Below, one piece after another: positions 21,701-39,072 of a stretch of 64,000 nucleotides of DNA; position 1 is the stretch's first letter; each line of letters begins with the position of its first letter. The notes under the pieces were generated by a model that saw nothing but the letters and a program-made list of their open reading frames with translations, was not told where the DNA came from and did not search any database. The translations under genes were made by a program, and so were the position numbers. The DNA is from an uncultured Thermoanaerobaculia bacterium (GTDB lineage: Bacteria; Acidobacteriota; Thermoanaerobaculia; Thermoanaerobaculales; Sulfomarinibacteraceae): NCBI GenBank assembly GCA_964512045.1, contig CAZEJK010000002.1, positions 23,147-87,146 on the forward strand. The letters are read 5' to 3'.

Positions 21701-21956
21701 GTGCGACCTCCAGCATCTATCGTATACGACCGCCTCCAGAGCGGGGCGCAACCCGGCGTCCGCCAAAGCCGAGCGAGCTTCTCAGTCTCGGTAGCGACAG
21801 TGCTTCCGGCCAGCTCCCGAGGTCTGATATCGTGAACACGAGACAGTGGCCCTCAAGTGGGCGAGCAGGTCTGCTCACCGGTACATGCGGGTAGCGTGTG
21901 CCGATGTGATGTTGAATCGGAATCCATTGAGCGGACCGGAGATAGCGGGGGACGCG

Positions 21957-24900
21957 ATGGGCGAAAGCCGTGATATTACTGAGATCTATCGATTGGTCCG
22001 GGTCCTCAAGGTTGACACCGGAGGCACGGTGTTTGCCGGCGAGGATCCCGACACGGGCGAGCCGGTGGCCATCAAGCTGCTGGAGGGTGGACTTGATGAT
22101 CCGGAGCGGCGGGAGCTGTTCGACAGCGCCATGAACGCGGTGGCGGCGGTGCAGCATCCAGCCGTTCCGAGGTGCTTGGGGCACGGTACGACATCGGCTG
22201 GAAGCGGCTATGTCGTGTGGGAGCTTCTCGAAGCCGAAACGCTCGAGGCGTCTGACAGCGTTGCATCTGACTCGGCTCGAGGTGCGGGCTTACTTGCTGA
22301 TGTGGCGGATGGGGTGGGAGCACTGCACTCCGCTGGAACCGTCCATGGCAACCTGGCACCGGAGAACGTGCTCGTCATCGGCGAGGGAGAGGACCGCAGG
22401 GCAGTCGTGGCCGGCCTCGGGAGCTGGGTGGTCCGGATGCAGCATCAGCCGAATCGGGTGCCCGCCCGATACCTTGCGCCAGAGCGACTCCATGCCGGTG
22501 CTGGTCTGAAGCCGCCGACAGAGGCGGCTGATGTCTACGCACTCGGAGTTTTGGTCTGCGAGGTTTTGGGATTCACGGTTGGATCCGTGACCGGACCGAG
22601 ACCCACCGTGACTCCGGCGACTCCGGCCAACGATGATCGAGTCGATGGACCACGCGACGCGGCACTGGCACTGGCAGGAGTGCTCGAGCTGTGCCTGCGT
22701 CGAGCGCCGGAGCAGCGACCAGCTCCGGGCGATGTTGCCGCAGCGTTGCGACGGTTTGATGGCTCCGTCTCGGGCACCGACGAAGGACCGCCCGTACGAG
22801 GGGCGGTTTCCGCTGCCACATCCGAGCCCGGGCCTGTAGCCGTTCCGCCGCCACTCCCACCATCCAAGGTCGGCGAGGAGGTGTCAGCTCCACCGACAGC
22901 GGCGGACGAGGCAGGTACTGAGGAAGAGCTGCCGGCGTATGAGCCTACGATGGTGATTCGACGTGATGCGGTCGGTGCTGCGGTGACGCCGGAACGCGGG
23001 GAGTCGGAGCCAGGTGGCGAGGCCCCTGCCGCTGAAGGAGCGGCCGACGACACCGACGAGGCCGGGACCGCTGTGGTCGATCGTGCGGAGATTGCGGATG
23101 CCGTGCAGCGCGCTTCGCGCGAAGAGAGCTCTGCCGAGGAAGAAGCGCGGCAGTCCGGAGACAGCGAAGTTGTCGACGAGCCGCCGGCGGAGGATGCCAC
23201 AGTCGCCCTGCCCAGGCGAGAGATCGAGCAGGCTGTGGCCGCGGCCCGCCAGCCGATCGGCCCGCCGGTTGCAGAGACCTCCGGGGAGACCACCGCGCGG
23301 CCCCCTGGCGTGCCGGACGATGCGACCGAGATCGAGGCGGAAGAGAACGCCGAGTCGCGACAGGCGCCATCGCCACCACCGACCTCTGTTGGTGCCGGTC
23401 AGGTGCCGGGGGCGACCGTCATCATGGAGAGGCCTGTGCCTCCGTCCGCCACAGAGATACAGGGCTCGGGTGTTGCCGAGAGCGAACACTACGCGGCAGC
23501 AGAAACCCCCGAGTGGGAGCTCGACGAGAGCCCTGAGCCGACTGCGCCGTTTGATGTCGTACCTCCGGCGGAGATCGAAGCCCCGGAGTGGGAGCTGGAG
23601 GCCGATCCCGTGGAGGCTCGCTCACGACCCGAGCCTTCAGGAGCCACGGAGCAGGCCGGAGAGGGAGGACCATCGGCCGCCAACAACGAGACTCCAGATC
23701 AGACGTCCCGCGAGCAAAGCCACGATCTGCCAGCGAGCCCGACGGATCGAATCGCCCCTCCGAGTGTCGCTAGCCGTTTGGTGGCGCACGCAGACGAGGA
23801 GGAGTTCGACCCAAACCGCACGATGGCCGTGTCGTTTGAGCCCGCGCCGCCGGAGGGCGTCCAGGCGGACGATGCATCGGAGGGTGATGAGGCTGCAGAA
23901 CCTGCGATGGCTGATGCCGTTCCCGGAGAAGAAGCGAGGTCCGACGAAGGCGGGACGGAGCAGACCGAGCCGACGACAGCATTGGCCGGTGAAGAGCGGG
24001 AGGAGATCCGCGAAACTCCGCCCGCGCCACCGCCGCTGGCACCACCGGCCGAGGTTGAGGATACGGGCTGGGCCGGGACGGAACGGGTTGACGCTGAACG
24101 GGAGGAAACGACCGATTCCGGGGCGCGCACAGCACCTGTCCCGCCCGATCAAGCTGAGGATGGGGGGCCGGAGGCCATCCCAGGCCCGACTCCGCCACCG
24201 GTTCCCCCAGAGGGTTCGGCTTCTCGCCCCGCAACCGTGCCACCTCCTGTCAGGGCGGGGCAGCCTCCCCCACCACCGTCACCTCCGAAACCAGATGTGA
24301 CCCCGGCGCCGGCGGTGTCAGGAGTGCCCCAGGATCCGCCGGTCGCGGCGCCCGCACCGCCGCCACCCGAGGCTCCGTCGCCAGCGCAGGAGGATCAACC
24401 GCCTGTCGAAGTGGCCGGAGCCACCGAACGTCCAGGCAAAATGCCTTCGAGGAGACGCTGGGGTCTCTTGGGGGGTATTGCGGCGGTGGTGATCGTGGCT
24501 GTTGTGACCGTCGTGGTGGTGCTGACCCGGGGAGGCGGGGAACCCGCTCCGCCAGAGTCAACGGCGGAGCTGGTGGCCGCGCTGCCCACCGCCGTACCAG
24601 CTCCGACACCTGTCCTTGAGGAGGAGTTGGATGAACCGCCAGAGCTGTTTCCGGATCTGCTCCTCGCCCAGCAGCTGCTCGCAACCGGCGAAACAGAGGC
24701 GGCACGCAGGGCCGTGGAGACTATTCCCGATGAGGTTGTCGACGGGTTCGGAGAGGACGACTTTGACGCGTACCAGGAGCTGGTCGATGTGCTGGCTGGC
24801 GCCGAGCAGAACGAGCTCGAGCAGGCGGTTCGGACGCTTCGCAGGGGCCTGAAGATCGATAGCCCCAAGCTCCTCAGGAGGGCGATAGAGGAGCTGGACC

Positions 24901-25742
24901 GTCAGGACCCCGCACGTCTTGCAGATCGCCCGGACCTTGTCAGCGATATCACTCTCGCCCGCCGGGCCCTGGAGGTGCGCGATCTGATGTGGAGCGCCCA
25001 CAACGCCGGCGACTCGGAAGCCGTGCTGCGGCATGCCGAGACGCTCAACGCGCTCATCCCGGGCTACAGTCGGATTCCGGAGCTGCGGTCTGCTGCCGCC
25101 AGGTCGATCGAGGACGAAGCGGAGGCCGCTGCCACGGCCGGCGATCTGGAACGGGCCATCTCGCGACTGCAGACGATTGCTGCCAGCTGGCCGGATCGCC
25201 CTGGTCTCAACGAGCGGATCGAGGCCCTTCGCGCACGGCAGACCCGCAACCGGCAGATGGCGATGGTGCTCGACCGGGCCCGCGAGCTCGAACGGGCGCG
25301 TCAGCCGGAGCAGGGGCTCGCGGCGCTGGCCGAGGTGACGCCGAGCGAAGCGTACCGAGCCGACTTCGAGCAGGCCCGACAGCGGCTACGGGCTCTGCTC
25401 ACCCAGATGGATCAGGAGTCGCCGACTGTCGAGCTTTCAGACGACGTGGAGCTGGAGTTCCGGAAGGACGATGTCGTGACGCTGAGAGTCCGCGTGGCGG
25501 ACGATCTTCGGGTGGTATCGGTGAGCGGCTTCTGTCGTTCCAAAGGTGACAGCGGCTATCGTACCCTGCCATTGACGGAGAGCGGAGATGGTGTCTGGAC
25601 TGCAACAGTCGGCCCGCAGGTTCACGATAACCGCACGTTGGAGCTGTACGTGACCGCCACGGATCCCTCCGGACACGTGGGGTCTCTCGGATCCGCCGAG
25701 GCGCCCGTTGAGCTGCAGCGCAAGAGGTGGTACCAGCCGTGA
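21957..25742 (+). CDS. membrane-spanning Ser/Thr-kinase-like protein, predicted pseudokinase. It has a very long acidic Pro-rich disordered region, one TM and a periplasmic helical + beta C-terminus.
   Basis: The kinase fold is recognisable (VAIKLL, YLAPERL, DVYALGVLVCEV). HGN (22344-22352) replaces the catalytic-loop HRD, and AGLG (22410-22421) replaces DFG. The TM segment is LLGGIAAVVIVAVVTVVVVL (about 24460-24530). The start codon is uncertain. Confidence 0.8.
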   Translation: MGESRDITEIYRLVRVLKVDTGGTVFAGEDPDTGEPVAIKLLEGGLDDPERRELFDSAMNAVAAVQHPAVPRCLGHGTTSAGSGYVVWELLEAETLEASDSVASDSARGAGLLADVADGVGALHSAGTVHGNLAPENVLVIGEGEDRRAVVAGLGSWVVRMQHQPNRVPARYLAPERLHAGAGLKPPTEAADVYALGVLVCEVLGFTVGSVTGPRPTVTPATPANDDRVDGPRDAALALAGVLELCLRRAPEQRPAPGDVAAALRRFDGSVSGTDEGPPVRGAVSAATSEPGPVAVPPPLPPSKVGEEVSAPPTAADEAGTEEELPAYEPTMVIRRDAVGAAVTPERGESEPGGEAPAAEGAADDTDEAGTAVVDRAEIADAVQRASREESSAEEEARQSGDSEVVDEPPAEDATVALPRREIEQAVAAARQPIGPPVAETSGETTARPPGVPDDATEIEAEENAESRQAPSPPPTSVGAGQVPGATVIMERPVPPSATEIQGSGVAESEHYAAAETPEWELDESPEPTAPFDVVPPAEIEAPEWELEADPVEARSRPEPSGATEQAGEGGPSAANNETPDQTSREQSHDLPASPTDRIAPPSVASRLVAHADEEEFDPNRTMAVSFEPAPPEGVQADDASEGDEAAEPAMADAVPGEEARSDEGGTEQTEPTTALAGEEREEIRETPPAPPPLAPPAEVEDTGWAGTERVDAEREETTDSGARTAPVPPDQAEDGGPEAIPGPTPPPVPPEGSASRPATVPPPVRAGQPPPPPSPPKPDVTPAPAVSGVPQDPPVAAPAPPPPEAPSPAQEDQPPVEVAGATERPGKMPSRRRWGLLGGIAAVVIVAVVTVVVVLTRGGGEPAPPESTAELVAALPTAVPAPTPVLEEELDEPPELFPDLLLAQQLLATGETEAARRAVETIPDEVVDGFGEDDFDAYQELVDVLAGAEQNELEQAVRTLRRGLKIDSPKLLRRAIEELDRQDPARLADRPDLVSDITLARRALEVRDLMWSAHNAGDSEAVLRHAETLNALIPGYSRIPELRSAAARSIEDEAEAAATAGDLERAISRLQTIAASWPDRPGLNERIEALRARQTRNRQMAMVLDRARELERARQPEQGLAALAEVTPSEAYRADFEQARQRLRALLTQMDQESPTVELSDDVELEFRKDDVVTLRVRVADDLRVVSVSGFCRSKGDSGYRTLPLTESGDGVWTATVGPQVHDNRTLELYVTATDPSGHVGSLGSAEAPVELQRKRWYQP

Positions 25743-25828
25743 TGACCGAGCCGAATGCGGGGCGGACCATTGCGACTGCCCGATCTGCCCGATGCCGGGC
25801 CGTACGTCCGGTAGGGCGGGGGTGAGAC

Positions 25829-28987: not shown

Positions 28988-28993
28988 GCGACG

Positions 28994-29019
28994 TCACGTC
29001 GAGACGTGATCTCTTTTTG
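28994..29019 (+). terminator. candidate intrinsic terminator after the kinase gene
   Basis: TCACGT cgag ACGTGA hairpin (28994-29009) followed by tctcttttt, starting 7 nt after the TGA at 28985-28987. Confidence 0.4.
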
Positions 29020-29032
29020 CTCGGCGCTCTGC

Positions 29033-29038
29033 TACAAT
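29033..29038 (+). promoter_or_regulatory. candidate extended -10 (TGcTACAAT), 6 nt upstream of the ATG at 29045 (possible leaderless fha transcript)
   Basis: The sequence reads cTGcTACAATgctggcATG with no SD. Confidence 0.4.
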
Positions 29039-29044
29039 GCTGGC

Positions 29045-30997
29045 ATGCATCCAGACTGCTCCACGAGGTTGGAGACGGTCGAGCTGACGGAGCTTCGTGG
29101 TCCCGATATGGCCGCCGGAGGAGCGTCCAAGGGCGCTGAGAAGTCCCGGCTCGACACTGAGGATACGGCCGCCTTGCGAGGTACGGAGAGCACGGCAAGC
29201 GGACCGGGGTTCGTCGGTGGCATCACCCTTGAGGTTCTGGAAGGTCCGATGGATGGGACGGTGCTTTCTGGCGATCTCGACTCGGTGAGCATCGGGCGGC
29301 GGCCGGGAAACGATCTGAGCCTGTTCGCCGATCCGTTGGTGTCCTCTGAGCATGCGCGGTTGGTTCGGACCGCCGGCGAGGATGGAACGTCGCGCTGGCT
29401 TCTCGAAGACCGCGGCAGCACCAACGGCACCTGGGTTCGAACGGGACAGCTCAACGCTCCCCAGCTGATCGAGCCGGGCGATGCGTTCGTGGTCGGAAAC
29501 GCAGTGGTGCGGTGCTCATCCGGTATCGCGCAGGAGACGTTTACCCCGGACGCCGGAACCCTCCGCAGCGAGATGCAACGGTTTCGACAGCGCTTTTCGG
29601 ACGCGACGGCCAGGGGCTGGGGCGCGGCGATGATGTTGGCGGCTCACGAGCGCAGTGTGGCGATCTCGGATCGGCACCTTTTTCTCGGTGTGGTGCGGTT
29701 GAACCCCGAGCTGCCGGTTGTCGCCCGCGGGGAGGGACCGATCACCCGCGGCGCGGTGTCCGCGGTAGCGGCCAACGCTGAGTTCTGGAGCAACGGAGAC
29801 GAGTGGATTCCGGCCCAGCTGTCGGAGGTGGTGGCGCAGACAGAGCCTCTGTTTGATGTCGAGCTGGAGATCACGCCACGACTGTTGCGGATCATACGCG
29901 GCGCCGAGCAGCTCGCGAGCTCGGCAGGCGGTGTGCAGATCGAGGTCTACGACGTCCTCCGTGCGCTGCTCGACGATCCGAACAACCGAGTGCGGGAGCT
30001 GCTCCGTCGGGCGAAGGCGGACATGGGTGCGGTGGAGTCGGCATTGGCGTCTGCACCTCGGCGCGCGCCAGCACCGCGTCGGGAGGGTTCTGAAGGCTCG
30101 GCGGCCGCGGTGGCAACGGCACCACCTGTGGCGCGTGCGAAGGACCTCAAGGTACCCGTGGTCGACGGACGGACCCACGAGACGGCCAACGAGCTTCGTG
30201 GAGTCTTGGCGCTGTATCATCTTGCCTCTGCCGATGAACGCCGGGCCGCAATCAAGGAGATGCTGACGCACGAGGTCTCGAAGCTTCCGGCCGACCAGCG
30301 GTTGCGGGTGCTCTCGCAGCTGCCCGACCTGTTTCCAGTGCACGCAGCCGGAACGGCGGGCCTGGAAGAGACATCCCGGTTGCGGGAACGAGTGGCGGAG
30401 CTCGAGGCCCAGGTTTCCTCTCAGCGCAAGGTTGCACCTCCGCCGATCTCGTCGATTCCATGGCCGCAGGTCCTCGCCCGCGAAGGTGGCGATCTCGAGG
30501 AGTGTCAGCCGTTGGATCGCTCACCACTGCTGTTCCTCCGCGAGGTGTTGCAGTTCTCTGTCGCCATCGAACGGTTCGTCGTGTCGATGGTGTGCGGTCT
30601 GACGGATCGATCGATCTCGACCGCGAGGATCCAGTTGCCCGGCTTCAAGACGTCTCTTCAAGGGCATGCGAAGCACGTCGGCGAGGCGCAGGAGCTGGCG
30701 GGATCCGAGCTGCACGATTACCTCTCCTCGTTGGAGACATGGTTGGTGGCGGCTATGGCTGCGTACTACGAGAGTCCAGAGGTGTGGTTCGCTGATTTCT
30801 GGGGAAAGATCAACCCGGCCCGGGTGGAAGCTCGGTTTTCGAAGAAGCTGTTTAGCGAGCAGAAGTGCTGGTCGCATTACAAGGAAACGGTGCGCTCGAT
30901 CTCGCCGGATCTGGTCGGCGATGAGATTCAGGCGATCGTGCGCAAGAAGGCTCAGGAACAGTACAAGCGTATGAAGGAAAGGAGATCGACACGATGA
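29045..30997 (+). CDS. fha: T6SS-associated FHA-domain protein (Fha/TagH-like) with an inserted Clp_N-like double repeat
   Basis: FHA core: SVSIGRRPGNDLSLFADPLVSSEHARLV ... LEDRGSTNGTWV. Two Clp_N-like repeats: ISDRHLFLGVVRLNPE, and ITPRLLRIIRGAEQLASSAGGVQIEVYDVLRALLDDPNNRVRELLRRAKADMG. It sits directly upstream of tssJ with an ATGA overlap. The start is chosen from the -10 geometry, so the ORF-track start at 29006 is less likely. Confidence 0.85.
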   Translation: MHPDCSTRLETVELTELRGPDMAAGGASKGAEKSRLDTEDTAALRGTESTASGPGFVGGITLEVLEGPMDGTVLSGDLDSVSIGRRPGNDLSLFADPLVSSEHARLVRTAGEDGTSRWLLEDRGSTNGTWVRTGQLNAPQLIEPGDAFVVGNAVVRCSSGIAQETFTPDAGTLRSEMQRFRQRFSDATARGWGAAMMLAAHERSVAISDRHLFLGVVRLNPELPVVARGEGPITRGAVSAVAANAEFWSNGDEWIPAQLSEVVAQTEPLFDVELEITPRLLRIIRGAEQLASSAGGVQIEVYDVLRALLDDPNNRVRELLRRAKADMGAVESALASAPRRAPAPRREGSEGSAAAVATAPPVARAKDLKVPVVDGRTHETANELRGVLALYHLASADERRAAIKEMLTHEVSKLPADQRLRVLSQLPDLFPVHAAGTAGLEETSRLRERVAELEAQVSSQRKVAPPPISSIPWPQVLAREGGDLEECQPLDRSPLLFLREVLQFSVAIERFVVSMVCGLTDRSISTARIQLPGFKTSLQGHAKHVGEAQELAGSELHDYLSSLETWLVAAMAAYYESPEVWFADFWGKINPARVEARFSKKLFSEQKCWSHYKETVRSISPDLVGDEIQAIVRKKAQEQYKRMKERRSTR

Positions 30998-31488
30998 GCA
31001 TCGGGGGCCTGGATCGGTACGGCGTGTGGTTGGCCTGTGCGGCAGTCGGAGCAGCTCTTACGCTCGGCACCATTGGCTGTGCGAGCAGCTCGACGGCCCA
31101 CTTCGTCTGCGACGCTCGCGTCAATGATGGTCTGCTCCTGACTATCGACCTCATCGAGGTGGCGGACGAGGAGGCGCAACAGATCCGTCAGACGGGAGAT
31201 GACTGGTTCTACTCCGACCTGCGGCGACAGCTTGCAGGTCGTACCAAGACCATCGCTGTCAAGGGAGGATGCGACGAGCGCATCGATCTGACCGTCCTCA
31301 CTGCAAAGGAGAAGGTTCTCCGCAAGAAGAAGGGGTACGGGATTCTCGCCGTCATCGGCGACTACCAGACGCGGGGTGGAGAGCGGATCTCCGGAAGCAT
31401 GCAGTTCCTCGATCGCGAGCAGTGGAAAGGCAAGACGACGCTTGTTCGGGTCCACGATGCGTATCTCACCATCGAGGGGAGCCGTTAG
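30994..31488 (+). CDS. tssJ: type VI secretion outer-membrane lipoprotein TssJ
   Basis: 164 aa with the lipobox LTLGTIGC. Size and position between fha and tssK match TssJ/SciN, and LLLTIDLIEVADEE is a TssJ-like beta segment. Confidence 0.75.
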   Translation: MSIGGLDRYGVWLACAAVGAALTLGTIGCASSSTAHFVCDARVNDGLLLTIDLIEVADEEAQQIRQTGDDWFYSDLRRQLAGRTKTIAVKGGCDERIDLTVLTAKEKVLRKKKGYGILAVIGDYQTRGGERISGSMQFLDREQWKGKTTLVRVHDAYLTIEGSR

Positions 31489-31532
31489 CGAGCTGTGTTG
31501 GATGATCCGACCGAGGAGAGAGGACGACGAGC

Positions 31533-32900
31533 GTGAGCAGGATACCCGAAGTCAACTGGTCTGAGGGCATGTTTCTCCGGCCGCAGCATCTGCAGCAGTT
31601 CTCACGGTACGTCCGGGGACTGCTCAGCGAAACCTGGCGGCAGACGCATCCATACCTCTGGGGTCTCGATGATATCGAGATCGATGGTGAGCAGCTCGAG
31701 GGATTCACCTTTGCAGTGAGACGCCTCAATGTTGTCTTGCCCGACGGTACGAGGGCTGCCACACCAACCAGCCTGACAGTCAACTCGAGGTCGTTCAAGG
31801 ACGAGCTGCGACAGGCAGAGGGACCGATGATGGTCTGGCTCGGCGTGCCAACGCTGAGCGAGGGCGATGCGAACGCGGCACGTCCTGAGGAGCTTGGCGG
31901 ACGAGATCTTCGCTACCAGTTGGAGTCGGTGGAGGTTGCGGACGAGAACGCCGGCGGCACTCCGCGTGCGATGGAGATCCGGCGTCTGCGGGCTCGGCTG
32001 TTTTTCGGCAATGAGAACCGTGAGGGGTATGACTGTCTTCCGATCGCCGCCCTGGAGCGCTCGGGTCAGGGGAGCAACGAGCCGAAGATTGCGGACAGCT
32101 TTTTCCCCCCGGTAGTGCGGCTCGGTGCCTGGGAGCCGTTGCAGCAGTTGGCGGAGTCGGTGCTGCATCGCGTGGAGGCGAAGCAGCGGTTTCTCCGCGC
32201 GGAGGTCCAAGAGGGGAGGATCAACCTCGAGGGAGCCGGAGGAGGAAGCTGGCAAGCAGTGTTCAAGCTGCAGATCGTCGGCTCGTTCTTGCACGTGCTC
32301 CGTCAGGTGATCGCCACGCCAGGGATCCATCCGTTCACGGTCTACGTTGAGCTGGCGCGGCTGGCGGGCGAGCTCTCGATCTTCGAGGAGGAAGGCGCCG
32401 AGGCGATCGAGGTTCCACTGTACGACCACACGCGTCTTGGACCGTGCTTCCATGCGACGGTGTTCACGGTCGAGCGTTTGCTCGAGAAGATTCTGTCGGG
32501 TCGGTTCGTCCACGTACCCTTCGAGCTTTCGGGCGAGCTTTTGATTGCCCGTCTGCAGGAGTCGTGGCTCGGCCCGAAGAGCGAGCTGTTCTTGTGTATC
32601 GAAAGCGACCTGCCAGATCGCAGCATCTTGTCACGGATCGAGACCGCCAAGATCGGCGCCTCGGTGGATCTTCCGCTGCTCAAGCAACGGCGGTTGTTCG
32701 GTCTCGACATCGAGCTTCTGAGCCGAACTCCGGGCGGGCTTCCTGCTCGCTCCGAGCTGCACTACTTCGCCATCAACCGCGAAGGACCCTACTGGGAGTC
32801 GGTTGAACGGGAGCGCGAGATCGCCATTTTGGGAGGGATCGACCCGAAGCTGCGCTTCAGCTTGTACATCGTGCTGCAGCCGTCTGATGATGAGCGGTAG
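31533..32900 (+). CDS. tssK: type VI secretion baseplate protein TssK
   Basis: The N-terminus VNWSEGMFLRPQHLQQ is the TssK/ImpJ signature. It is 455 aa with a GTG start after GAGGAGAGAGGA. Confidence 0.92.
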   Translation: MSRIPEVNWSEGMFLRPQHLQQFSRYVRGLLSETWRQTHPYLWGLDDIEIDGEQLEGFTFAVRRLNVVLPDGTRAATPTSLTVNSRSFKDELRQAEGPMMVWLGVPTLSEGDANAARPEELGGRDLRYQLESVEVADENAGGTPRAMEIRRLRARLFFGNENREGYDCLPIAALERSGQGSNEPKIADSFFPPVVRLGAWEPLQQLAESVLHRVEAKQRFLRAEVQEGRINLEGAGGGSWQAVFKLQIVGSFLHVLRQVIATPGIHPFTVYVELARLAGELSIFEEEGAEAIEVPLYDHTRLGPCFHATVFTVERLLEKILSGRFVHVPFELSGELLIARLQESWLGPKSELFLCIESDLPDRSILSRIETAKIGASVDLPLLKQRRLFGLDIELLSRTPGGLPARSELHYFAINREGPYWESVEREREIAILGGIDPKLRFSLYIVLQPSDDER

Positions 32901-32966
32901 GACCTTGATTGGCCACGCAATGGGCTTGGGCGCGCAGGGGTCGAGCCGAGCTCACGACTGGGGGGC

Positions 32967-33650
32967 GTGATGGAGAGTCAAGATTACCGAACCGAGCTGT
33001 TCCGGCTCGCGTCACCGCTGTTTCTGTACCTGGTGTCGTTTCGCCGCAAGGTGAAGCGCGGGTTCCACGTCGATGAGAGTGAGGCCCGCCAGGAGCTCGA
33101 GAGGATCTTCACCGACATGGATATGCGGGCACGGCGCGACCCACGCCTCGATGCGCTGTACGAGAAGGCGCGCTATCCCCTGGTGATTCTCGCCGATGAA
33201 GTGCTCCTGAACTCGGGCTGGGACAACGCGGCGAGCTGGGAGAAGGACGTGTTGGAGGAACGCTACTTCAACACCAACATCGGTGGCGACAAGCTGTTCC
33301 ATATCGCCGATGAGCTTCGCCATGACGAGGTGGAGCTTGCAGTGATCCTGTACACGGCTGTCTGCCTCGGTGTCAAGGGCCGGTACCACCGTCAGCCGGA
33401 GAAGCTCGAGGAGATGCGGAGCAGGTTGTATCGGCAGCTGGGGGAGTACCTGGGGGACGTGCAAAATGTGCTGACTCCGGATGCGTACCACGTCTCACCC
33501 AAGCCGGCTCAGAGGCTCTCGGTGGGGGTTGCCATGACCAGAGTGGCAATCGCGGCTGTGGTGCTCCTGGTGTCGTACTGGATCGCGAACTGGGCAATCT
33601 GGACCAGCGCTGTGGCGGATCTGCGCGAGATCGTGCGCGGTCTGGGCTGA
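32967..33650 (+). CDS. tssL: type VI secretion membrane protein TssL (DotU family), without a peptidoglycan-binding extension
   Basis: DotU-like segment ALYEKARYPLVILADEVLLNSGW and a single C-terminal TM (AIAAVVLLVSYWIANWAIW). An alternative ATG lies at 32970. Confidence 0.88.
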   Translation: MMESQDYRTELFRLASPLFLYLVSFRRKVKRGFHVDESEARQELERIFTDMDMRARRDPRLDALYEKARYPLVILADEVLLNSGWDNAASWEKDVLEERYFNTNIGGDKLFHIADELRHDEVELAVILYTAVCLGVKGRYHRQPEKLEEMRSRLYRQLGEYLGDVQNVLTPDAYHVSPKPAQRLSVGVAMTRVAIAAVVLLVSYWIANWAIWTSAVADLREIVRGLG

Positions 33651-33660
33651 GGAGGCGACG

Positions 33661-36600
33661 ATGCGCGAGCTGCTGACCCTGATGCGCAACATCCCTACCG
33701 TCGGCCGGTACATCGGCGGTCTGATCATCTTCGTCGTCCTGATCTATCTGATTGCGCCGCGGATCGGTCTTGGCGGCAAGGAGTGGATCCTGGTCATCGG
33801 CTTGCTGGTGATCTTTGGGCTGTTTGGCCTGCAGAGCTTCATCATGAAGCGCAGGGAGAAGCGTCGCGCCAAGCAGTTTGAGGGAAGCCTCGGTCTCCAG
33901 GGTCGTCAGACGGGCGTTGGTAAGGAGGAGATCCGGGAAGCTCTGAAAGAGCTGTCGGAGAAGTGGGAGGGAGCGGTTCGACAGCTGAGAGAGTCCGGCC
34001 TCTCGATCTATGACCTGCCGTGGTACTTGCTCATCGGTGAGCCGCAGTCCGGGAAGAGCACGACGCTGAAGAACTCGGGCATGGAGTTCCCGGTGGGCAG
34101 CGATGGGCTGTCGGGCTCTGGCGGGACCCGAAACTGCGACTGGTGGTTCACGAACGAAGCGGTGATCCTCGATACGGCCGGACGATTCACGTTTCAGGAG
34201 GACGCCGCGCCCGACGCACACGAGTGGAACGCTTTCCTGAAGCTGCTCTCCAAGCACAGGCGGCAGTGCCCGATCAACGGTGTGATCATCGTGGTCCCGG
34301 TCACGAGCCTGGTCGAAGATCCTGTCGACGTTCAGGAGGCCAAGGCAAAGAACATCCGTCAGAAGCTGCTCAGTCTGCAGAAGGACCTCGGGATTCGACT
34401 GCCTGTGTTCGTGCTCGTGACGAAGGCAGACCGCATCCTGGGCTTCACGGAGTTCTGCTCGAAGCTCGACCCGATCGACCAGCGTCAGCTGTTCGGCTGG
34501 TCGAACCGGGAGGGTCACGATCAGGCGTGGCGGCCGGAGTCCTTCGACGGTACCTTCAGCGAGATTGTGAGCCGCGTCCACAAGATGCGGCTGCGTTTCC
34601 TCCGCGTCGAGGAGAGCACCTCACAGGTCGACACACTGTTTGTGTTTCCCGAGGAGCTGGAAGCGATCCGCGAGCCTCTCGCGGCGTACCTGAACACCAT
34701 CTTTGCAGCGAGCCGGTACGAGGAGCCGTTCCTCCTGCGGGGGTACTACATCACCTCCGGAGTGCAGCAGGGGCGTCCGATCGCTCGGGCATGTCGCGAC
34801 CTGCTGCGGGTCCGTTCAGGAGGCGATCCGCAGGGCGTGTTGGAGGATCTCGAACAGGTCTTCAACAAGTCGCGCGCGTTCTTCATCCGCGACTTCTATG
34901 AGCGGAAGCTGTTCCCCGAACAGGGGCTTGTCACGCGGACCAGAGCCTCTCTGGCCAAGGAGCGGAAGACCAAGATGATTCTCCTGGGGGTGGCGCTCCC
35001 TCTGGCGTTGATCTTCCTGGTGATGTTCGGTGTGTCCGCCAGCATTCTGTACAACACTGTTGGCCGGATCAACGATGCAGTCGCTCAGGCCAAGACCTGC
35101 CTGAGCGACGAGCAACCGTGCAGTGTTACCGAGTCGTACGATCTCGTCGTGACGCTGGAGGAGGCGAAGGCTCAGCTACGACGAAGACGGTTCGCGCTGC
35201 TGATGTTCTTCCGGGGCGCGAGGAGCAATGAGATCTCCCAGGAGCTGCTTCCAGAGATCCAGGCCGAGCTGCTGCGGACCGGCGTGCTCGAGCCTGCGGT
35301 TCGTTCGTTCGTACGTCGCGCGGAGCTGGCCGGCTGGGAGAACACCCTCATCGCGTACCCGTCGTTTCGAGATGGGTTCGCCCAGCTACTCAGACTTGAT
35401 GAGCTCGAGCGTGCGGTGCTGGATCCGGACCGACAGGAGCGGCTCCGGAGGAACCTCTCGATCGAACCTCTGATCCGGTACTGCCAGGCAACCCCGGGCG
35501 TGGACACCAGCGAGGTCGGCCGTCAGGTGGACGAGTGGCTCGGTGAGGATACGCGGCTTGCGGAGGACGCCGAGAGCATCTTCCGGCATGTCGCGTCAGC
35601 AACCCCGAGAGTGGCCGATGTCGATGTGCCGGCGTTGCGATCGGCCAGTCGAGCAATGGCAGATTACTGGTCAATCTCCAACCTGGCCCGGTGGGACTTC
35701 GCGCTGATCGACCGGTACTTTGGTGGTTTCGTCGATGCGTTCGGCCAGATCCTCGATATGGCGCCTGCGATGGCGCCAGAGGCGCGTGCTGAGCTCGATC
35801 GTTACGTGGAGATCGCTCAGGCCATGGACCGGACGTACAGCGAGGGCGCCGAGCACATGGCGACTGCGCGGACCCCGCCAGGAAGCGACCGTCCGGGACT
35901 CGGGGTGGACGAGTGGGTTCAGTTCTGCCACGCGGATTATGAGCTGCTGCGCACCATCGCACCGGATGCGATCCCATCTGCGGAGGTCTCGGCGCTGTGC
36001 GATGGGATTCCGATGGAGTGGGAGCGCCTCCTCGCGCGGCGTGAGCAGTACGCCTACCTGTACACCGAAGGCGGGGGAGCGACGACGACCCCAGAGGAGA
36101 GCCCCGACCGTCCTGTCCCCGGTGAGGAGCGACTTGGCCAGCAGGCGCCTCGCGAGGCCTCTGCAGTGGTGGACACGGGCCCTCGACTGCACTGGTCGGA
36201 GGATGCAACCCGGATTCACGCCGCGGTCACGGACCTCGCAAGCCTGGTGCCCGCAGAGTCGATCAGTCAGCAGCAGGAGGAGTTCCTCCAGACACTGCGT
36301 ACGCGAGCGGGCCGTGAGCAGGAGCTGGAGGAGGTCACGAGCTACACAGACACCCAGACCCGGCGGTTCGGAGCGTGGAGCGAGCAGCTGTCTGGCCTCC
36401 GAACGCCGGAGCTCGCTGGCTACGAAGCGATCGGCGAGGTGGCGGCGCTCGGCCTCGGAGTCACGGTGCTGCCGCCGGTGGAAGAGTTCTTCCTTCGCGA
36501 CGTCTTTCCAGACAGCTGTCCGACCTGCTTTTATGAGGACTACGCCAAGACCAATGTACCGCCGGCCAACTCCGTGCTGACCTGGGCCGGAGATGTGCTC

Positions 36601-38106
36601 GGCGGCGTGTCCCGACAGGTCGACATCCGCCAGTCACTCGATGCAATCGACGACAGTGTGTACGACTACCTGGAGTCGTTCGTTGCGCAGGCTCGCGGTA
36701 GTGGAGGCGGTGGAGGAGGCTCGCGGTACAACCGTCCGCGGGAGGCGGCCGATGCCGTTCGTTGGTCGGACTTCGTGGCCGAGGTCCGCGACTGGCAGCC
36801 GGTCGTCCAGCTCCGGTCGTCCCGGAGCGGTGGCTCGGCATCGCTCGAGCAGCGCACGATGGACGAGTTCGCCCGGCGCAACCGCCGGCTCCAGCCGCTG
36901 GCAAGCCAGCTGCGAGCGTCGGCAGCGCCGAGATCATCCGGCAGCAGCGGTCCGCCGATCTCGAGCAACCTGGATCGAGCGATCGAGACGTTCCGGAGCT
37001 GTCTCGCGGTCCTCGACGACCGCCCGCTCGAGGCGTGGCGCCAGCTCGTGGCCGGTGCGGACGCAAAGCTGGACGACTTCCACGCCTTCTCACGCAACCG
37101 CGGTCTGCGGGACGATCGCGAGGCGCAGTGGCTCGTGGACAACCTCGAGCGCCACGGCGCACGGCTGCTCAGCGAGGCGATCCAGCCGCAGTTTTCAGAT
37201 CAGCTCGACCGTTTCTGGGACGATGTCGACTACTGCTGTCGCGAGCTCTACCCGTTCCTGACCGAGCGTCAAATGGGTGACTTGCGAGCGCTGTATCAGC
37301 GCGGCTACGAAGCGACCGGTGAGCCCCGACGCGAGGACAACGGCTGGGATCGGCGGGACCGGCGGGATCGTCCGGTCTGGCGGTTGCAGCTCTGGGACGG
37401 AGAGGTGCGCGACGCACGGGTGCGCGTCGTGCGACGCCGGATGGTACTGGAGACCGTACGGATCGCTGATCTGGAGGAGCTGTTCTTCGGCCGGGGCCGT
37501 TTGGCCGATCTGCATCGTGACTTCGCCCTGGCGCCGATCCTCGAAGGCCAGGAGACGATGATCGACTTCGTCGGTGAGGCCAAGGGGCGGCTGAAGGCAC
37601 TGGCGCGCTGGCAGCTTTTTCTGTTCGGACCATCCGGCGATGCGGAGAGCCGGTGGAGCCGTGACGCCGGTGATCGAGAGTTCCGGGTGCGGCTGATGGA
37701 GTCGACAGCCACCCGTGGCGCAACCTTCATCGGCGAGCGGGTCGGTCTGGTGAAGTTCCTTGGCGATAACGTTTTCCGACCCTCGACAGACGCTCGCAGG
37801 GGACGAGAGCTGAACGTACGTCTGCCGCTTGATGAGTCGCCAATCCTGATCGTGGGCATCAATGAGGACCGGACCACGGGGTGGACGGGTGAGCTCGAGA
37901 TCGAGGGAGGGCCCCTCAAGTTCCTGTTCTTGACGCACCTCGCACAGGAAGGTCCTCCGCGCAGAGACGGCCGGTTGTGGCAGGTGCGGATCGAGATACC
38001 GGATTACGATCGTCCGTCGGAACGGCTCGAGGGGATCTTCGAGCTGGAGTTCGATCGCCCTGTTCCGGATGTTCTTCCCGATAGCACCTCGGGTGGCAAT
38101 CGGTAG
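33661..38106 (+). CDS. tssM: type VI secretion membrane protein TssM (IcmF family), unusually long at 1481 aa
   Basis: It has N-terminal TMs and LPWYLLIGEPQSGKSTTLKNSG (Walker A), NCDWWFTNEAVILDTAGRF and INGVIIVVPV motifs. A third TM (ILLGVALPLALIFLVMFGV) is followed by about 1000 aa of periplasmic region. Confidence 0.95.
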   Translation: MRELLTLMRNIPTVGRYIGGLIIFVVLIYLIAPRIGLGGKEWILVIGLLVIFGLFGLQSFIMKRREKRRAKQFEGSLGLQGRQTGVGKEEIREALKELSEKWEGAVRQLRESGLSIYDLPWYLLIGEPQSGKSTTLKNSGMEFPVGSDGLSGSGGTRNCDWWFTNEAVILDTAGRFTFQEDAAPDAHEWNAFLKLLSKHRRQCPINGVIIVVPVTSLVEDPVDVQEAKAKNIRQKLLSLQKDLGIRLPVFVLVTKADRILGFTEFCSKLDPIDQRQLFGWSNREGHDQAWRPESFDGTFSEIVSRVHKMRLRFLRVEESTSQVDTLFVFPEELEAIREPLAAYLNTIFAASRYEEPFLLRGYYITSGVQQGRPIARACRDLLRVRSGGDPQGVLEDLEQVFNKSRAFFIRDFYERKLFPEQGLVTRTRASLAKERKTKMILLGVALPLALIFLVMFGVSASILYNTVGRINDAVAQAKTCLSDEQPCSVTESYDLVVTLEEAKAQLRRRRFALLMFFRGARSNEISQELLPEIQAELLRTGVLEPAVRSFVRRAELAGWENTLIAYPSFRDGFAQLLRLDELERAVLDPDRQERLRRNLSIEPLIRYCQATPGVDTSEVGRQVDEWLGEDTRLAEDAESIFRHVASATPRVADVDVPALRSASRAMADYWSISNLARWDFALIDRYFGGFVDAFGQILDMAPAMAPEARAELDRYVEIAQAMDRTYSEGAEHMATARTPPGSDRPGLGVDEWVQFCHADYELLRTIAPDAIPSAEVSALCDGIPMEWERLLARREQYAYLYTEGGGATTTPEESPDRPVPGEERLGQQAPREASAVVDTGPRLHWSEDATRIHAAVTDLASLVPAESISQQQEEFLQTLRTRAGREQELEEVTSYTDTQTRRFGAWSEQLSGLRTPELAGYEAIGEVAALGLGVTVLPPVEEFFLRDVFPDSCPTCFYEDYAKTNVPPANSVLTWAGDVLGGVSRQVDIRQSLDAIDDSVYDYLESFVAQARGSGGGGGGSRYNRPREAADAVRWSDFVAEVRDWQPVVQLRSSRSGGSASLEQRTMDEFARRNRRLQPLASQLRASAAPRSSGSSGPPISSNLDRAIETFRSCLAVLDDRPLEAWRQLVAGADAKLDDFHAFSRNRGLRDDREAQWLVDNLERHGARLLSEAIQPQFSDQLDRFWDDVDYCCRELYPFLTERQMGDLRALYQRGYEATGEPRREDNGWDRRDRRDRPVWRLQLWDGEVRDARVRVVRRRMVLETVRIADLEELFFGRGRLADLHRDFALAPILEGQETMIDFVGEAKGRLKALARWQLFLFGPSGDAESRWSRDAGDREFRVRLMESTATRGATFIGERVGLVKFLGDNVFRPSTDARRGRELNVRLPLDESPILIVGINEDRTTGWTGELEIEGGPLKFLFLTHLAQEGPPRRDGRLWQVRIEIPDYDRPSERLEGIFELEFDRPVPDVLPDSTSGGNR

Positions 38107-38115
38107 GGCGGCGCG

Positions 38116-39072
38116 ATGGGGATCCTGAGCCGCCTGAAAGAACGTCTGGAGTCCGAGCGGGACCTGCAGCTACCCCTTTCGACGTATGGAAAGCTTCCGA
38201 TTTACAAGGACTTTCTTCGATCAGGACTGACCGGCAAGGAGGCCCAGTCAGTCCGTCAATGGCTCGACCGCGGGATCAGTCATTTCTGGGCCTCCCGGCC
38301 GGAGTACCGATCGCAGGAGATCTACCAGCACGCCCTCTTCTTGAGATTCGACGGCGGACAGCGTGCCGTACTGGGCGTGCTGTGGGGGAGCCACGATGAG
38401 GGGATGCTCCGGCGGTTTCCGTTCATCTGCTTCACGACGGTACCCGTCGGTCGAGGTCCTGTTCCATCGTTGACAGCTCTCGATCTTCTCTCGCAAATGG
38501 TCGACCAGGCGCGACGGTGGCGACAGGACCTCGATCAGTTGGCATCGGTGGAGGCGTTCTACGGATGGTCGCGCGGTCGCACGTTCACGCTCAAAGAGCG
38601 CCCCGAGCGGGTGATCCGGCAGGAGGTCCGTGAGCGGTTCGGAGCGGTCACTGTCGGCGATTTCGCCGCCTTGCTGTACGCTGGCGACGAGCCGTTGACC
38701 TCCTGGGCCGCGCTCCATCGGAGGGTCGAGCGGCAGCTGGCAGGAGAGCGTCTGGCAGCTCGGTTTCCTACGTGTGCCCGTGGATCGATCCTCGACCAGA
38801 CCAAGCTGTGGTGCACGATGCTATCCGATCGTGTGGCGCGGGGTCGTGGCTGGAGCATCATCGTCCCGCTCTACGACGAGCACAGCGGGGTCGTGATGCT
38901 GCAGCGCCAGATCCGAGACGACGATGTGTTCGTGTTCCACCCAGAGATGCCAGACTACGACTTCATCGAAGATCTGCGACCGGAGCAGATCAGTACCAAT
39001 GGCGCGGACCCCTCTGCCGTTGATCCCGAGCAGAGATTGTTGGGATCGTCGAGCGGCGAGGGAGCGGCCTGA
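38116..39072 (+). CDS. tagF: type VI secretion-associated protein TagF (ImpM family)
   Basis: The N-terminal YGKLPIYKDFLRSGL ... VRQWLDRGI matches the TagF GKLPxxGDF-type signature. It lies immediately after tssM. Confidence 0.8.
   Translation: MGILSRLKERLESERDLQLPLSTYGKLPIYKDFLRSGLTGKEAQSVRQWLDRGISHFWASRPEYRSQEIYQHALFLRFDGGQRAVLGVLWGSHDEGMLRRFPFICFTTVPVGRGPVPSLTALDLLSQMVDQARRWRQDLDQLASVEAFYGWSRGRTFTLKERPERVIRQEVRERFGAVTVGDFAALLYAGDEPLTSWAALHRRVERQLAGERLAARFPTCARGSILDQTKLWCTMLSDRVARGRGWSIIVPLYDEHSGVVMLQRQIRDDDVFVFHPEMPDYDFIEDLRPEQISTNGADPSAVDPEQRLLGSSSGEGAA

What the first reader, a model, noticed from the sequence alone, without database searches (positions are those of the whole stretch)
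29045..30997. Fha/TagH-like protein appears to carry two Clp_N-like repeats in a locus that lacks ClpV
After the N-terminal FHA domain (about 29220-29440), the protein has two segments (about 29585-30050) whose pattern resembles the repeats of Clp/ClpV N-domains. These read A..A...ISDRHLFLGVV and ITPRLLRIIRGAEQLA...VYDVLRALLDDPNNRVRELLRRAKADMG. In canonical T6SSs the ClpV N-domain recognises the contracted sheath (TssC). An FHA-Clp_N fusion next to the membrane complex would be an unusual architecture. It could link Thr-phosphorylation signalling to sheath or substrate recognition.
Basis: inference. Interest (0 to 1): 0.65.

Follow-up and report, generated by a model that had tools for sequence, protein, structure and literature searches.

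The report
T6SS Fha scaffold carrying Clp N-domain
The gene encodes the phosphothreonine-reading scaffold protein (Fha/TagH) of a type VI secretion system that has the docking domain of a Clp chaperone built into its middle, which is a real and seemingly undescribed variant, although a relative shows it can sit beside the usual ClpV ATPase rather than replace it.

Summary
ORF 29045-30997 (650 aa) has an FHA domain (aa 55-163) followed by a complete two-repeat Clp N-domain (aa 167-337). A family profile hits ClpC/ClpB/ClpA N-domains in the PDB (best E=2e-9). The AlphaFold model's top 50 Foldseek matches are all Clp-type N-domains, aligned across both repeats. The C-terminal part is a divergent T6SS_FHA_C, so the protein is a TagH/Fha with a Clp N-domain where the usual linker lies.

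It sits in a conserved operon: two Ser/Thr kinases, Fha, a small lipoprotein-like ORF, TssK, TssL, TssM, TagF, TssA. At least about 35 protein clusters (50% identity) share the architecture, and one includes Thermoanaerobaculia (Acidobacteriota) proteins. A sister lineage in the same operon position keeps a colinear ClpC-like N-domain plus a degenerate D1 AAA+ module. This points to an ancestral capture of a ClpC/ClpB-type N-D1 fragment.

The "no ClpV" angle is weak. The window lacks every sheath, tube and baseplate gene too, and one relative's contiguous cluster encodes this Fha type and a full ClpV. The domain resembles ClpC/ClpB, not ClpV. Its most likely role is partner docking on the phospho-regulated scaffold, with the partner unknown. 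This is a new variant of a known kind, of moderate interest.

The parts
29045..30997 (+). Fha/TagH-like gene (650 aa from the ATG at 29045; the ORF opens at GTG 29006, and ATG 29108 is another possible start)
29207..29533 (+). FHA domain (aa 55-163) with intact GR / SxxH / NG pThr-binding signature
   Evidence: Pfam FHA E=1.9e-12; invariant G84 R85 S100 H103 N127 G128; AF2 pLDDT 80-89 and FHA structures at the top of Foldseek
29543..30055 (+). Complete Clp N-domain (aa 167-337): a leading helix (aa 170-184), repeat 1 (aa 191-244), a family-specific insert (aa 245-275) and repeat 2 (aa 276-337)
29777..29869 (+). Family-specific insert between the two Clp_N repeats (aa 245-275) with conserved W248 and W254. 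ClpB and ClpC lack it, but the D1-bearing Fha relatives share it
   Evidence: alignment; invariant W82/W88 of A2; low AF2 confidence here
30056..30157 (+). Low-complexity Pro/Ala-rich linker (aa 338-371). Relatives P0039, P0157, P0158 and P0159 carry a degenerate AAA+ D1 module plus lid at this position
30158..30340 (+). Conserved helical segment C1 (aa 372-432, 'ALYHLASADER...LFPV'); function unknown
30515..30988 (+). C-terminal domain C2 (aa 491-648), a divergent T6SS_FHA_C (PF20232)
   Evidence: No Pfam hit on the window protein itself. 30 of 71 family members hit PF20232, and the six inspected individually match colinearly but below threshold. 21 of 71 hit TIGR03354 TagH, best 5.2e-13
21846..25742 (+). 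Ser/Thr protein kinase, 1298 aa
25829..28987 (+). Ser/Thr protein kinase with TPR repeats, 1052 aa, immediately upstream (PpkA-like position)
   Evidence: conserved in L003
30994..31488 (+). Small ORF (164 aa) with a lipobox-like LGTIGC. It is conserved after the Fha gene in every related locus. TssJ-like by position only
31533..32900 (+). TssK
   Evidence: PF05936 E=3.2e-85
32967..33650 (+). TssL (DotU)
   Evidence: PF09850 E=7.8e-32
33661..38106 (+). TssM (IcmF-related), 1481 aa
   Evidence: PF14331 E=3.9e-64
38116..39072 (+). TagF
   Evidence: PF09867 E=1.3e-13; TIGR03373
39090..40832 (+). TssA (ImpA_N + VasJ), the last gene of the module; the next gene is QueG on the minus strand

Best explanation
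The gene encodes the Fha/TagH scaffold of a T6SS threonine-phosphorylation pathway. Its FHA domain reads a phosphothreonine, either on one of the two upstream Ser/Thr kinases or on TssL. Its divergent T6SS_FHA_C domain ties it to the membrane complex and TagF, as in known TagH proteins.

Where canonical TagH has a disordered linker, this family has a folded, selectively maintained two-repeat Clp N-domain. That domain is the remnant of a ClpC/ClpB-type N-domain-plus-D1 fragment captured by an ancestral Fha. A sister lineage at the same operon position still has the D1 ring module, in a form that should bind ATP but not hydrolyse it or thread substrate.

In the window protein the D1 module is gone. 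The N-domain most probably acts as a docking module for a short helix or peptide, bringing a still unknown partner to the kinase-controlled assembly site. It is not a substitute for ClpV.

What is shown: the domain identities, the operon context, the family, the D1-bearing relatives, and coexistence with ClpV in a relative.
What is inferred: the direction of evolution (D1 lost rather than gained) and the docking function.
For: Architecture:
- FHA domain.
- Clp N-domain by profile (best E=2e-9), by Pfam on all 7 homologues and by fold.
- T6SS_FHA_C and TagH links through relatives.

Context:
- The order Fha, small ORF, TssK, TssL, TssM (usually followed by TagF and TssA) recurs in the window and, as far as each contig reaches, in every related locus examined except the P0157 contigs (L089/L090), where a PP2C phosphatase and a kinase follow the Fha gene.
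- Kinases lie upstream in the window, L001 and L003.

Origin:
- P0039, P0157, P0158 and P0159 have FHA + Clp_N x2 + AAA + AAA_lid_9 + C1 + FHA_C. The fragment P0057 adds a further cluster.
- P0159 sits in the same operon slot.
- The N-D1 stretch of P0039 is colinear with ClpC, E=2e-52.
- An insert of about 18 aa with a W-x5-W motif in repeat 1 is shared with the window protein and absent from ClpB and ClpC.
- The window-family HMM scores 74 bits on P0039 across both repeats.
- The D1 module is degenerate: Walker A is kept, Walker B is DE to DD, the pore-loop Tyr is lost (KYRGEFE to KSAKELE), and the Arg fingers are lost (ERRF to KGCF/DRCF).
- Clp_N is detected in all three clades of a rough NJ tree (clade B via Pfam on P0032).

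Selection: within clade A, mean pairwise identity is 0.42 for repeat 1 and 0.36 for repeat 2. This is close to FHA (0.44) and C2 (0.41), against 0.18-0.24 for the linkers, and the repeats have almost no gaps.

Not a ClpV replacement: a full ClpV lies in the same cluster as a clade-B Fha-ClpN.

Literature:
- Fha1 is needed for ClpV1 foci, and Fha binds pThr-TssL (PMC3953482).
- TagF binds Fha directly (PMC5995506).
- A 2026 review lists TagF, ClpV and p-TssL as TagH partners (PMC13584744).
- Clp N-domains are adaptor- and substrate-docking modules (PMC12583610).
Against: - No partner of the Clp N-domain was identified, so the docking function rests only on analogy with other Clp N-domains.
- The window protein itself gives no T6SS_FHA_C or TIGR03354 hit. 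That assignment is transitive, and the six Pfam hits inspected individually were below the gathering score.
- Repeat 1 is not detectable by sequence in the window protein alone.
- The AF2 model of the C-terminal half is unreliable, with pLDDT below 50.
- The NJ tree is rough. D1-bearing proteins form one subclade of clade C, so a secondary gain of D1 cannot be strictly excluded.
- The window holds only half of a T6SS, so it is not shown that this system is functional in this organism.
- The ClpV-containing cluster belongs to clade B. In the clade-A relative, the view ends at TssF, before the position where ClpV would be expected.
Confidence: 0.6

Rival explanations
1. One reading: the Fha-borne Clp N-domain works like the ClpV N-domain. 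It would recognise the contracted sheath (the TssC N-terminal helix) and compensate for, or stand in for, a missing ClpV.
For: - No ClpV is encoded in the window or within about 10 kb of the Fha gene in the family loci scanned for Clp-type Walker A motifs.
- The domain has an extra helix before repeat 1 (aa 170-184). From memory of Pietrosiuk et al. 2011, this is reminiscent of the extra N-terminal helix of ClpV-N; I did not test it.
- Fha1 and ClpV1 co-localise in P. aeruginosa (PMC3953482).
Against: - A relative with the same Fha type has a full ClpV in the same contiguous cluster.
- By sequence the domain is ClpC/ClpB-like: 15-26 bits against 2.4 bits for that ClpV. ClpV-N 4hh5 reaches only E=0.06.
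- By fold, no ClpV-N appears in the top 50 matches.
- The P0039 N-D1 stretch aligns better with a ClpC-type protein (199 bits, N-domain plus D1) than with the T6SS ClpV (136 bits, D1 only).
- An N-domain without a threading ring cannot disassemble a sheath.
Confidence: 0.1
2. The Clp N-domain is an evolutionary relic of a decayed Clp fusion. It now serves only as a folded spacer between FHA and FHA_C and has no binding function of its own.
For: - The D1 module of the sister lineage is visibly decaying and is absent here.
- Repeat 1 has drifted beyond sequence recognition.
- The ClpC pArg-site glutamates E32 and E106 (PMC12583610) are replaced by R (SDRH) and Y (EVYD).
Against: - The repeats are conserved as well as FHA and FHA_C, and much better than the true linkers, with almost no indels.
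- The domain is kept in three deep clades.
- Conserved surface-type residues (R210, R279, R315, W254) and a conserved family-specific insert suggest a maintained interface.
Confidence: 0.2
3. The domain recruits a Clp/Hsp100 machine or one of its adaptors to the T6SS assembly site. Candidates are the cognate ClpV, a housekeeping ClpB or ClpC, or a MecA- or ClpS-like adaptor. This would hard-wire the Fha-ClpV link seen in Pseudomonas.
For: [quoted passage not shown]
- Stand-alone N-domain proteins that regulate Clp machines exist, such as ClpC2 and ClpT, and they are among the structural matches.
- The D1-bearing relatives could in principle co-assemble with Clp rings.
Against: - There is no evidence for N-domain to ring recruitment of this kind.
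- The pArg pockets are not conserved.
- No adaptor gene was recognised in the operons, although a conserved unknown protein of 670-770 aa is often adjacent.
Confidence: 0.1
4. The Clp_N similarity is a chance match and the region is an unrelated helical domain.
For: The Pfam score on the whole protein is below the gathering score (18.6 against 20.7 bits).
Against: Profile E=2e-9, with all 60 listed PDB hits being Clp/Hsp100-type N-domains. The fold search is unanimous. A relative's domain is colinear with ClpC from the N-domain through D1 at E=2e-52.
Confidence: 0.01

Closest known systems
TagH / Fha1 (T6SS-associated FHA protein; P. aeruginosa PA0081, A. tumefaciens Atu4335; TIGR03354; Pfam FHA + T6SS_FHA_C)
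   Same: - An N-terminal FHA domain with intact pThr-binding residues.
- A C-terminal domain homologous, by transitivity, to T6SS_FHA_C.
- Encoded beside tssK, tssL, tssM, tagF and Ser/Thr kinases.
- The expected role is a pThr-dependent scaffold that TagF can sequester.
   Different: - A folded Clp N-domain of about 170 aa, plus a conserved helical segment C1, replaces the low-complexity linker.
- The window protein is too diverged to hit TIGR03354 or PF20232 directly.
- One family cluster includes Thermoanaerobaculia (Acidobacteriota) proteins, outside the Proteobacteria where TagH has been studied.
N-domain of ClpC / ClpB / ClpA (Pfam PF02861, double Clp_N repeat)
   Same: - The same pseudo-twofold eight-helix fold.
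- The best sequence and structure matches.
- In the sister lineage it is still followed colinearly by a ClpC-like D1 AAA+ module and lid.
   Different: - It is internal to a non-ATPase protein.
- An extra leading helix, and an insert of about 30 aa with two conserved Trp between the repeats.
- The pArg-site glutamates of ClpC are not conserved.
- No M-domain, D2 or ClpP loop anywhere in the family.
ClpV (TssH) N-domain, which binds the TssC N-terminal helix of contracted sheaths
   Same: It is also a Clp N-domain in a T6SS context, and both have an extra helix before repeat 1. That resemblance is a lead only.
   Different: - There is no specific sequence or structural affinity to ClpV-N.
- It coexists with a real ClpV in a relative's cluster.
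- It lacks any threading ring.
Stand-alone or re-used Clp N-domain proteins (mycobacterial ClpC2, plant ClpT1/T2)
   Same: They are N-domains detached from a working unfoldase ring and used as binding or regulatory modules. They appear among the fold matches.
   Different: Those proteins act on Clp proteases. Here the domain is embedded in a secretion-system scaffold between the FHA and FHA_C domains.

Membership tests
TagH/Fha (T6SS-associated FHA protein) | N-terminal FHA domain with pThr-binding residues | tested here: met
   PF00498 E=1.9e-12; GR, SxxH and NG invariant; FHA structures are the top Foldseek hits
TagH/Fha (T6SS-associated FHA protein) | C-terminal T6SS_FHA_C domain (PF20232) | tested here: inconclusive
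   No hit on the window protein even at E<=10. The homologous C2 domain hits PF20232 in 30 of 71 family members, best E=4e-5. The six hits inspected individually are colinear and below the gathering score.
TagH/Fha (T6SS-associated FHA protein) | Match to NCBIfam TIGR03354 (VI_FHA) | tested here: not met
   No hit for the window protein. 21 of 71 relatives hit it, best 5.2e-13.
TagH/Fha (T6SS-associated FHA protein) | Encoded in a T6SS cluster with tssK/L/M, tagF and a Ser/Thr kinase | tested here: met
Clp N-domain (PF02861, double repeat) | Pfam hit at or above the gathering score | tested here: inconclusive
   18.6 bits on the whole protein (below 20.7). 20.8 bits on the isolated domain, and all 7 homologues hit it.
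Clp N-domain (PF02861, double repeat) | Profile-level homology to solved Clp N-domains | tested here: met
   E=2e-9 to ClpC1; all 60 listed hits are Clp/Hsp100-type N-domains
Clp N-domain (PF02861, double repeat) | Two-repeat helical fold covering both repeats | tested here: met
   AF2 pLDDT 79.9. All of the top 50 Foldseek matches are Clp-type N-domains over 153-174 columns, with target-normalised TM 0.53-0.72 for the stand-alone N-domain entries. Repeat 1 is confirmed through P0039.
Clp/Hsp100 AAA+ unfoldase (ClpV, ClpB, ClpC) | AAA+ module(s) with Walker A and B motifs after the N-domain | tested here: not met
   No Walker A motif in the gene, and only a 34-aa linker follows the N-domain. 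The sister proteins P0039 and P0157-P0159 keep a degenerate D1 module.
ClpV (TssH) N-domain | Closer to ClpV N-domains than to other Clp N-domains | tested here: not met
   2.4 bits on a cognate-type ClpV against 15-26 bits on ClpB/ClpC; 4hh5 at E=0.06; absent from the top 50 fold matches
ClpV (TssH) N-domain | Binds the N-terminal helix of TssC in the contracted sheath | not testable with these tools
   This needs complex prediction or binding assays, and the window does not even encode a TssC.

The most novel reading that the evidence does not exclude
An ancestral T6SS Fha protein captured the N-domain and first ring module of a ClpC-like unfoldase. In today's proteins the surviving N-domain would be a built-in receptor that physically couples the kinase-controlled membrane complex to a sheath component, to ClpV or to a cargo or adaptor. 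In the D1-bearing lineage, Fha would form an ATP-binding, non-hydrolysing ring at the base of the machine. That would be a previously unseen way of wiring phosphorylation control to T6SS assembly or recycling.
Probability: 0.2. Interest if true: 0.7.

Novelty: new variant of a known kind. Interest (0 to 1): 0.5.

Why it matters
How TagH/Fha turns a phosphorylation signal into T6SS assembly is still unclear (PMC13584744). Its link to ClpV is known only from co-localisation in Pseudomonas.

A natural fusion of Fha with parts of a Clp/Hsp100 protein is an independent, 'Rosetta-stone' type hint that Fha scaffolds and Clp-type modules work at the same site. The fusion is conserved across at least three deep clades and occurs in two states, N-domain only and N-domain plus a degenerate D1.

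It also offers a structured domain in place of a disordered linker, which can be mutated and used as bait. Finally, it documents T6SS accessory diversity in a family with Acidobacteriota members, outside the model Proteobacteria.

It does not change the picture of the core machine.

Tried and rejected
- The genome-contig scan with the full-length alignment was wasted. The tool took its patterns from the FHA domain and returned only generic FHA proteins, mostly from Actinomycetota and Chloroflexota.
- The metagenome-contig scan with the FHA-less alignment found only 3 loci, all with the same operon.
- Repeat 1 against repeat 2 by hhalign (E=0.56) and the repeat-1 profile against the PDB were both uninformative.
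- A single-sequence phmmer search of the middle region against the PDB was non-significant. Only the family profile worked.
- AF2 on the full protein gave no usable model for aa 341-650.
- Walking along contigs to reach ClpV in clade A failed. The window's last gene was not on record, probably because of a start-codon mismatch. The last allowed look-up ended at TssF.
- The idea that the domain is a pArg receptor like the ClpC N-domain was considered and rejected, because both key glutamates are replaced (PMC12583610).
- An assembly chimera as the explanation for the FHA-Clp_N-AAA proteins was rejected. Four 90%-identity clusters from NCBI, JGI, ENA and Logan contigs share the architecture, and one sits in the canonical operon slot.
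- The taxonomy of the window itself could not be established. Only one family cluster carries a named source, Thermoanaerobaculia.
Full report
**The gene and its domains**

The region 29006/29045-30997 on the plus strand is one ORF. The public gene call starts at ATG 29045 and gives 650 aa, identical to P0001.

Pfam finds an FHA domain (E=1.9e-12) and a sub-threshold Clp_N match at aa 287-335 (18.6 bits against a gathering score of 20.7, E=0.0021). It finds no T6SS_FHA_C. NCBIfam gives no TagH (TIGR03354) hit.

**The neighbourhood**

The gene lies in a co-directional module running from 21846 to 40832:
- two large Ser/Thr kinases (21846-25742; 25829-28987, with TPR repeats);
- this gene;
- a 164-aa ORF with a lipobox-like motif;
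- TssK, TssL (DotU), TssM, TagF and TssA.

QueG follows on the other strand. The rest of the window is housekeeping: a NiFe hydrogenase operon, a tricorn-like protease, PDH E1, an ABC transporter and GGDEF/EAL proteins. No TssB, TssC, Hcp, TssE, TssF, TssG, VgrG, ClpV or PP2C is present. The window therefore holds only the membrane-complex and regulatory half of a T6SS.

**Is the middle region a Clp N-domain?**

Seven homologues were found by the word-indexed search and aligned (A1).

A profile of the middle region alone (A2, window aa 167-343) was searched against PDB sequences. It returned 65 hits, and all 60 listed are Clp/Hsp100-type N-domains:
- chloroplast ClpC1 5gui, E=2e-9;
- B. subtilis ClpC, M. 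tuberculosis ClpC1 and ClpC2;
- ClpB 1khy, 9e-5, and ClpA, 5e-4;
- Hsp104;
- the ClpV N-domain 4hh5, only at E=0.06.

Each of the seven members hits Pfam Clp_N on its own. These sequence matches all involve repeat 2 (aa 276-337). Repeat 1 (aa 191-244) is not recognisable by sequence. hhalign of repeat 1 against repeat 2 gives E=0.56, and the repeat-1 profile against the PDB gives nothing significant.

Structure settles the question. AlphaFold2 models the FHA domain and the middle domain with confidence. The domain-only model has pLDDT 79.9 and pTM 0.79. All of its 50 best Foldseek matches in the PDB are Clp-type N-domains (ClpC1, ClpC, ClpD, ClpA, ClpB, Hsp104, ClpT, ClpC2). They align over 153-174 columns, which covers both repeats, with target-normalised TM 0.53-0.72 for the stand-alone N-domain entries.

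A second, independent line supports repeat 1. The family repeat-1 HMM matches aa 107-194 of relative P0039 at 6e-11, and Pfam reports two Clp_N stretches in that protein.

**What is the C-terminal half?**

An exhaustive profile search with the FHA-less alignment (A3) found 921 proteins at E<=1e-3 and 58 at E<=1e-30. Domain mapping with HMMs built here shows at least about 35 clusters (50% identity) with FHA + Clp_N repeat(s) + C1 + C2. A further set has a middle region too diverged for my HMMs, although Pfam still finds Clp_N in it (P0032, E=2.3e-6). There are also short FHA + C2 proteins.

Among 71 members scanned:
- 30 hit Pfam T6SS_FHA_C, best E=4e-5, and the six inspected individually match colinearly;
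- 21 hit TIGR03354 TagH, best E=5.2e-13.

The C2 domain (window aa 491-648) is therefore a divergent T6SS_FHA_C. The protein is a TagH/Fha in which a folded Clp N-domain occupies the position of the usual linker. For the window protein itself this assignment is transitive.

**Conserved context**

The order Fha-ClpN, small ORF, TssK, TssL, TssM (usually followed by TagF and TssA) recurs in the window and, as far as each contig reaches, in every related locus except the P0157 contigs. Kinases lie upstream in L001 and L003. A PP2C phosphatase and a kinase lie downstream in the P0157 contigs L089/L090.

One cluster (P0013) includes NCBI proteins from a Thermoanaerobaculia bacterium of the Acidobacteriota. 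The taxon of the window itself was not determined.

**Where did the Clp N-domain come from?**

Relative P0039 (875 aa) has this order of domains: FHA, Clp_N x2 (E=1.2e-10), AAA, AAA_lid_9 (E=1.2e-15), C1, T6SS_FHA_C. The architecture is not an assembly artefact. Four 90%-identity clusters from NCBI, JGI, ENA and Logan carry it, and a fifth fragment does too (P0057). P0159 occupies exactly the Fha slot of the operon.

The N-D1 stretch of P0039 is colinear with ClpC from the N-domain through the D1 lid, at E=2e-52. ClpB follows at about 1e-46.

An alignment with ClpB and ClpC shows that D1 is degenerate in all four proteins:
- Walker A is intact (GRTGVGKT);
- Walker B is DD instead of DE;
- the pore-loop tyrosine is lost (KYRGEFE to KSAKELE);
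- the arginine fingers are lost (ERRF to KGCF/DRCF).

The same alignment shows an insert of about 18 aa after repeat 1 with a W-x5-W motif ('MWTGDREWV'). ClpB and ClpC lack it, but the window protein shares it ('FWSNGDEWI'). The window-family HMM scores 74 bits on P0039 over both repeats.

A rough NJ tree of FHA + C1 + C2 gives three clades, and Clp_N is present in all of them (clade B via Pfam on P0032). The D1-bearing proteins form a subclade of clade C.

The simplest reading is a single ancestral capture of a ClpC/ClpB-like N-D1 fragment, followed by loss of D1 in most lineages. A separate later gain of D1, exactly downstream of the N-domain in native register, is less likely but not excluded. 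This step is inference.

**Is it a ClpV surrogate?**

No Clp-type Walker A motif lies within about 10 kb of the Fha gene in the family loci scanned, other than those inside the D1-bearing Fha genes themselves. But clade-B relative P0287 lies in a contiguous cluster: Fha-ClpN, small ORF, TssK, TssL, TssM, TagF, Hcp, ImpE/TagJ, TssA, TssB, TssC, TssE, TssF, TssG, and then a 911-aa ClpV with Clp_N, two AAA modules and ClpB_D2-small.

A clade-A relative from the cluster linked to Thermoanaerobaculia continues with TssA, four unknown genes, TssB, TssC, Hcp, TssE and TssF. The fetched stretch then ends, before the position where ClpV would be expected.

The Fha N-domain is also not ClpV-like:
- the family HMM scores 15-26 bits on ClpB/ClpC and 2.4 bits on that ClpV;
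- P0039 aligns with a ClpC-type protein over N-domain plus D1 (199 bits) but with the T6SS ClpV over D1 only (136 bits).

So the absence of ClpV from this window is uninformative. The ClpV-substitute reading is unlikely.

**Is the domain functional?**

Within 19 clade-A proteins, mean pairwise identity is:

| Region | Mean pairwise identity |
|---|---|
| repeat 1 | 0.42 |
| repeat 2 | 0.36 |
| FHA | 0.44 |
| C1 | 0.46 |
| C2 | 0.41 |
| N-terminal tail, linker and coiled-coil region | 0.18-0.24 |

The repeats have almost no gaps. Nearly invariant positions include R210, W254, P278, R279 and R315. This argues for a maintained fold and probably a maintained interface.

It is not a ClpC-type phospho-arginine receptor. 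The key glutamates E32 and E106 (PMC12583610) correspond to R in 'SDRH' and Y in 'EVYD'.

**Most likely mechanism**

From published work:
- Fha binds pThr on TssL or is itself a PpkA substrate, and is needed for ClpV1 foci (PMC3953482);
- TagF represses by binding Fha (PMC5995506);
- a 2026 review lists TagF, ClpV and p-TssL as TagH partners and says the mechanism is unclear (PMC13584744).

By position and domains, the window protein should play the same scaffold role, with the two upstream kinases as writers. Clp N-domains generally dock short helices or peptides of adaptors and substrates. The embedded domain most likely recruits a partner to the activated membrane complex.

Candidates are the sheath, ClpV, TagF, TssA, or the conserved 670-770-aa unknown protein that often neighbours these genes. 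None was tested.

**Novelty**

Full-text searches for FHA with Clp_N in a T6SS context, and for T6SS_FHA_C, found no description of this architecture. The 2026 review does not mention it.

It is a new variant of a known kind: TagH with an inserted Clp N-domain, plus a rarer form with a degenerate D1. Interest is moderate. It gives a Rosetta-stone style link between Fha scaffolds and Clp modules and a tractable handle on TagH function, but it does not alter the core model of the machine.

Noticed in passing
L001:560-2581, L089:4352-6658, L091:210-2516, L094:7809-10004, L095:7702-9834, L097:13344-15509 (minus strand): A conserved protein of 670-770 aa with no Pfam family lies next to or near the Fha-ClpN gene in clades A, B and C. 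It has a Cys-rich N-terminal part and a 'DL(Y/H)SLGM(L/M)LF' motif that resembles kinase subdomain IX. Pairwise E-values run from about 1e-47 to 1e-135. It is absent from the window. It may be an unrecognised T6SS accessory or pseudokinase.
   Followed up: partly
P0039, P0157, P0158, P0159, P0057; loci L089-L091: An Fha lineage keeps a ClpC-like D1 AAA+ module between the Clp N-domain and the FHA_C part. Walker A is intact, but Walker B is DD, the pore-loop Tyr is lost and the Arg fingers are lost. This looks like a pseudo-ATPase inside a T6SS scaffold protein.
   Followed up: partly
L001:1-551 (gene runs off the locus; product 597 aa): The gene upstream of the cluster in the P0004 contig carries both VipA (TssB) and VipB (TssC) Pfam hits in one product of 597 aa. 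This is an apparent TssB-TssC fusion, or possibly a gene-calling artefact.
   Followed up: no
window 21846-40832: The T6SS module in this window is only the kinase, Fha, TssJ-like, TssK, TssL, TssM, TagF and TssA half. It has no PP2C phosphatase and no sheath, tube, baseplate or spike genes. It is flanked by a tricorn-like protease (17160-20591, minus strand) and QueG (40883-41998, minus strand). Relatives L096 and L097 have contiguous clusters, so this organism has either a split or an incomplete system.
   Followed up: partly
window 29006-29134: The start codon is uncertain. The ORF opens at GTG 29006, the database call uses ATG 29045, and a TACAAT (-10-like) box lies 8 nt upstream of that ATG. 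A third candidate is ATG 29108 (MAAGG...). The first 50 or so residues are unconserved and are modelled as disordered.
   Followed up: no
window 21846-25742 and 25829-28987: Two very large tandem Ser/Thr kinases (1298 and 1052 aa, the second with TPR repeats along about 700 aa) precede the Fha gene. Neither shows the vWA-type periplasmic domain that I recall for PpkA (from memory, not checked). Their long non-kinase regions are unexplained.
   Followed up: no
window 8516-13953: A membrane-bound [NiFe] hydrogenase operon: small subunit, a 4Fe-4S protein with a TAT signal, an NrfD-like membrane subunit, the large subunit and a HycI-type maturation protease. It is unrelated to the finding.
   Followed up: no
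proteins P0077, P0084-P0156: Many proteins of 250-1300 aa carry 3 to 9 tandem Clp_N repeats, and my six family HMMs detected no other domain in them. They were picked up by the repeat-2 part of the profile. They are not T6SS-linked as far as seen.
   Followed up: no
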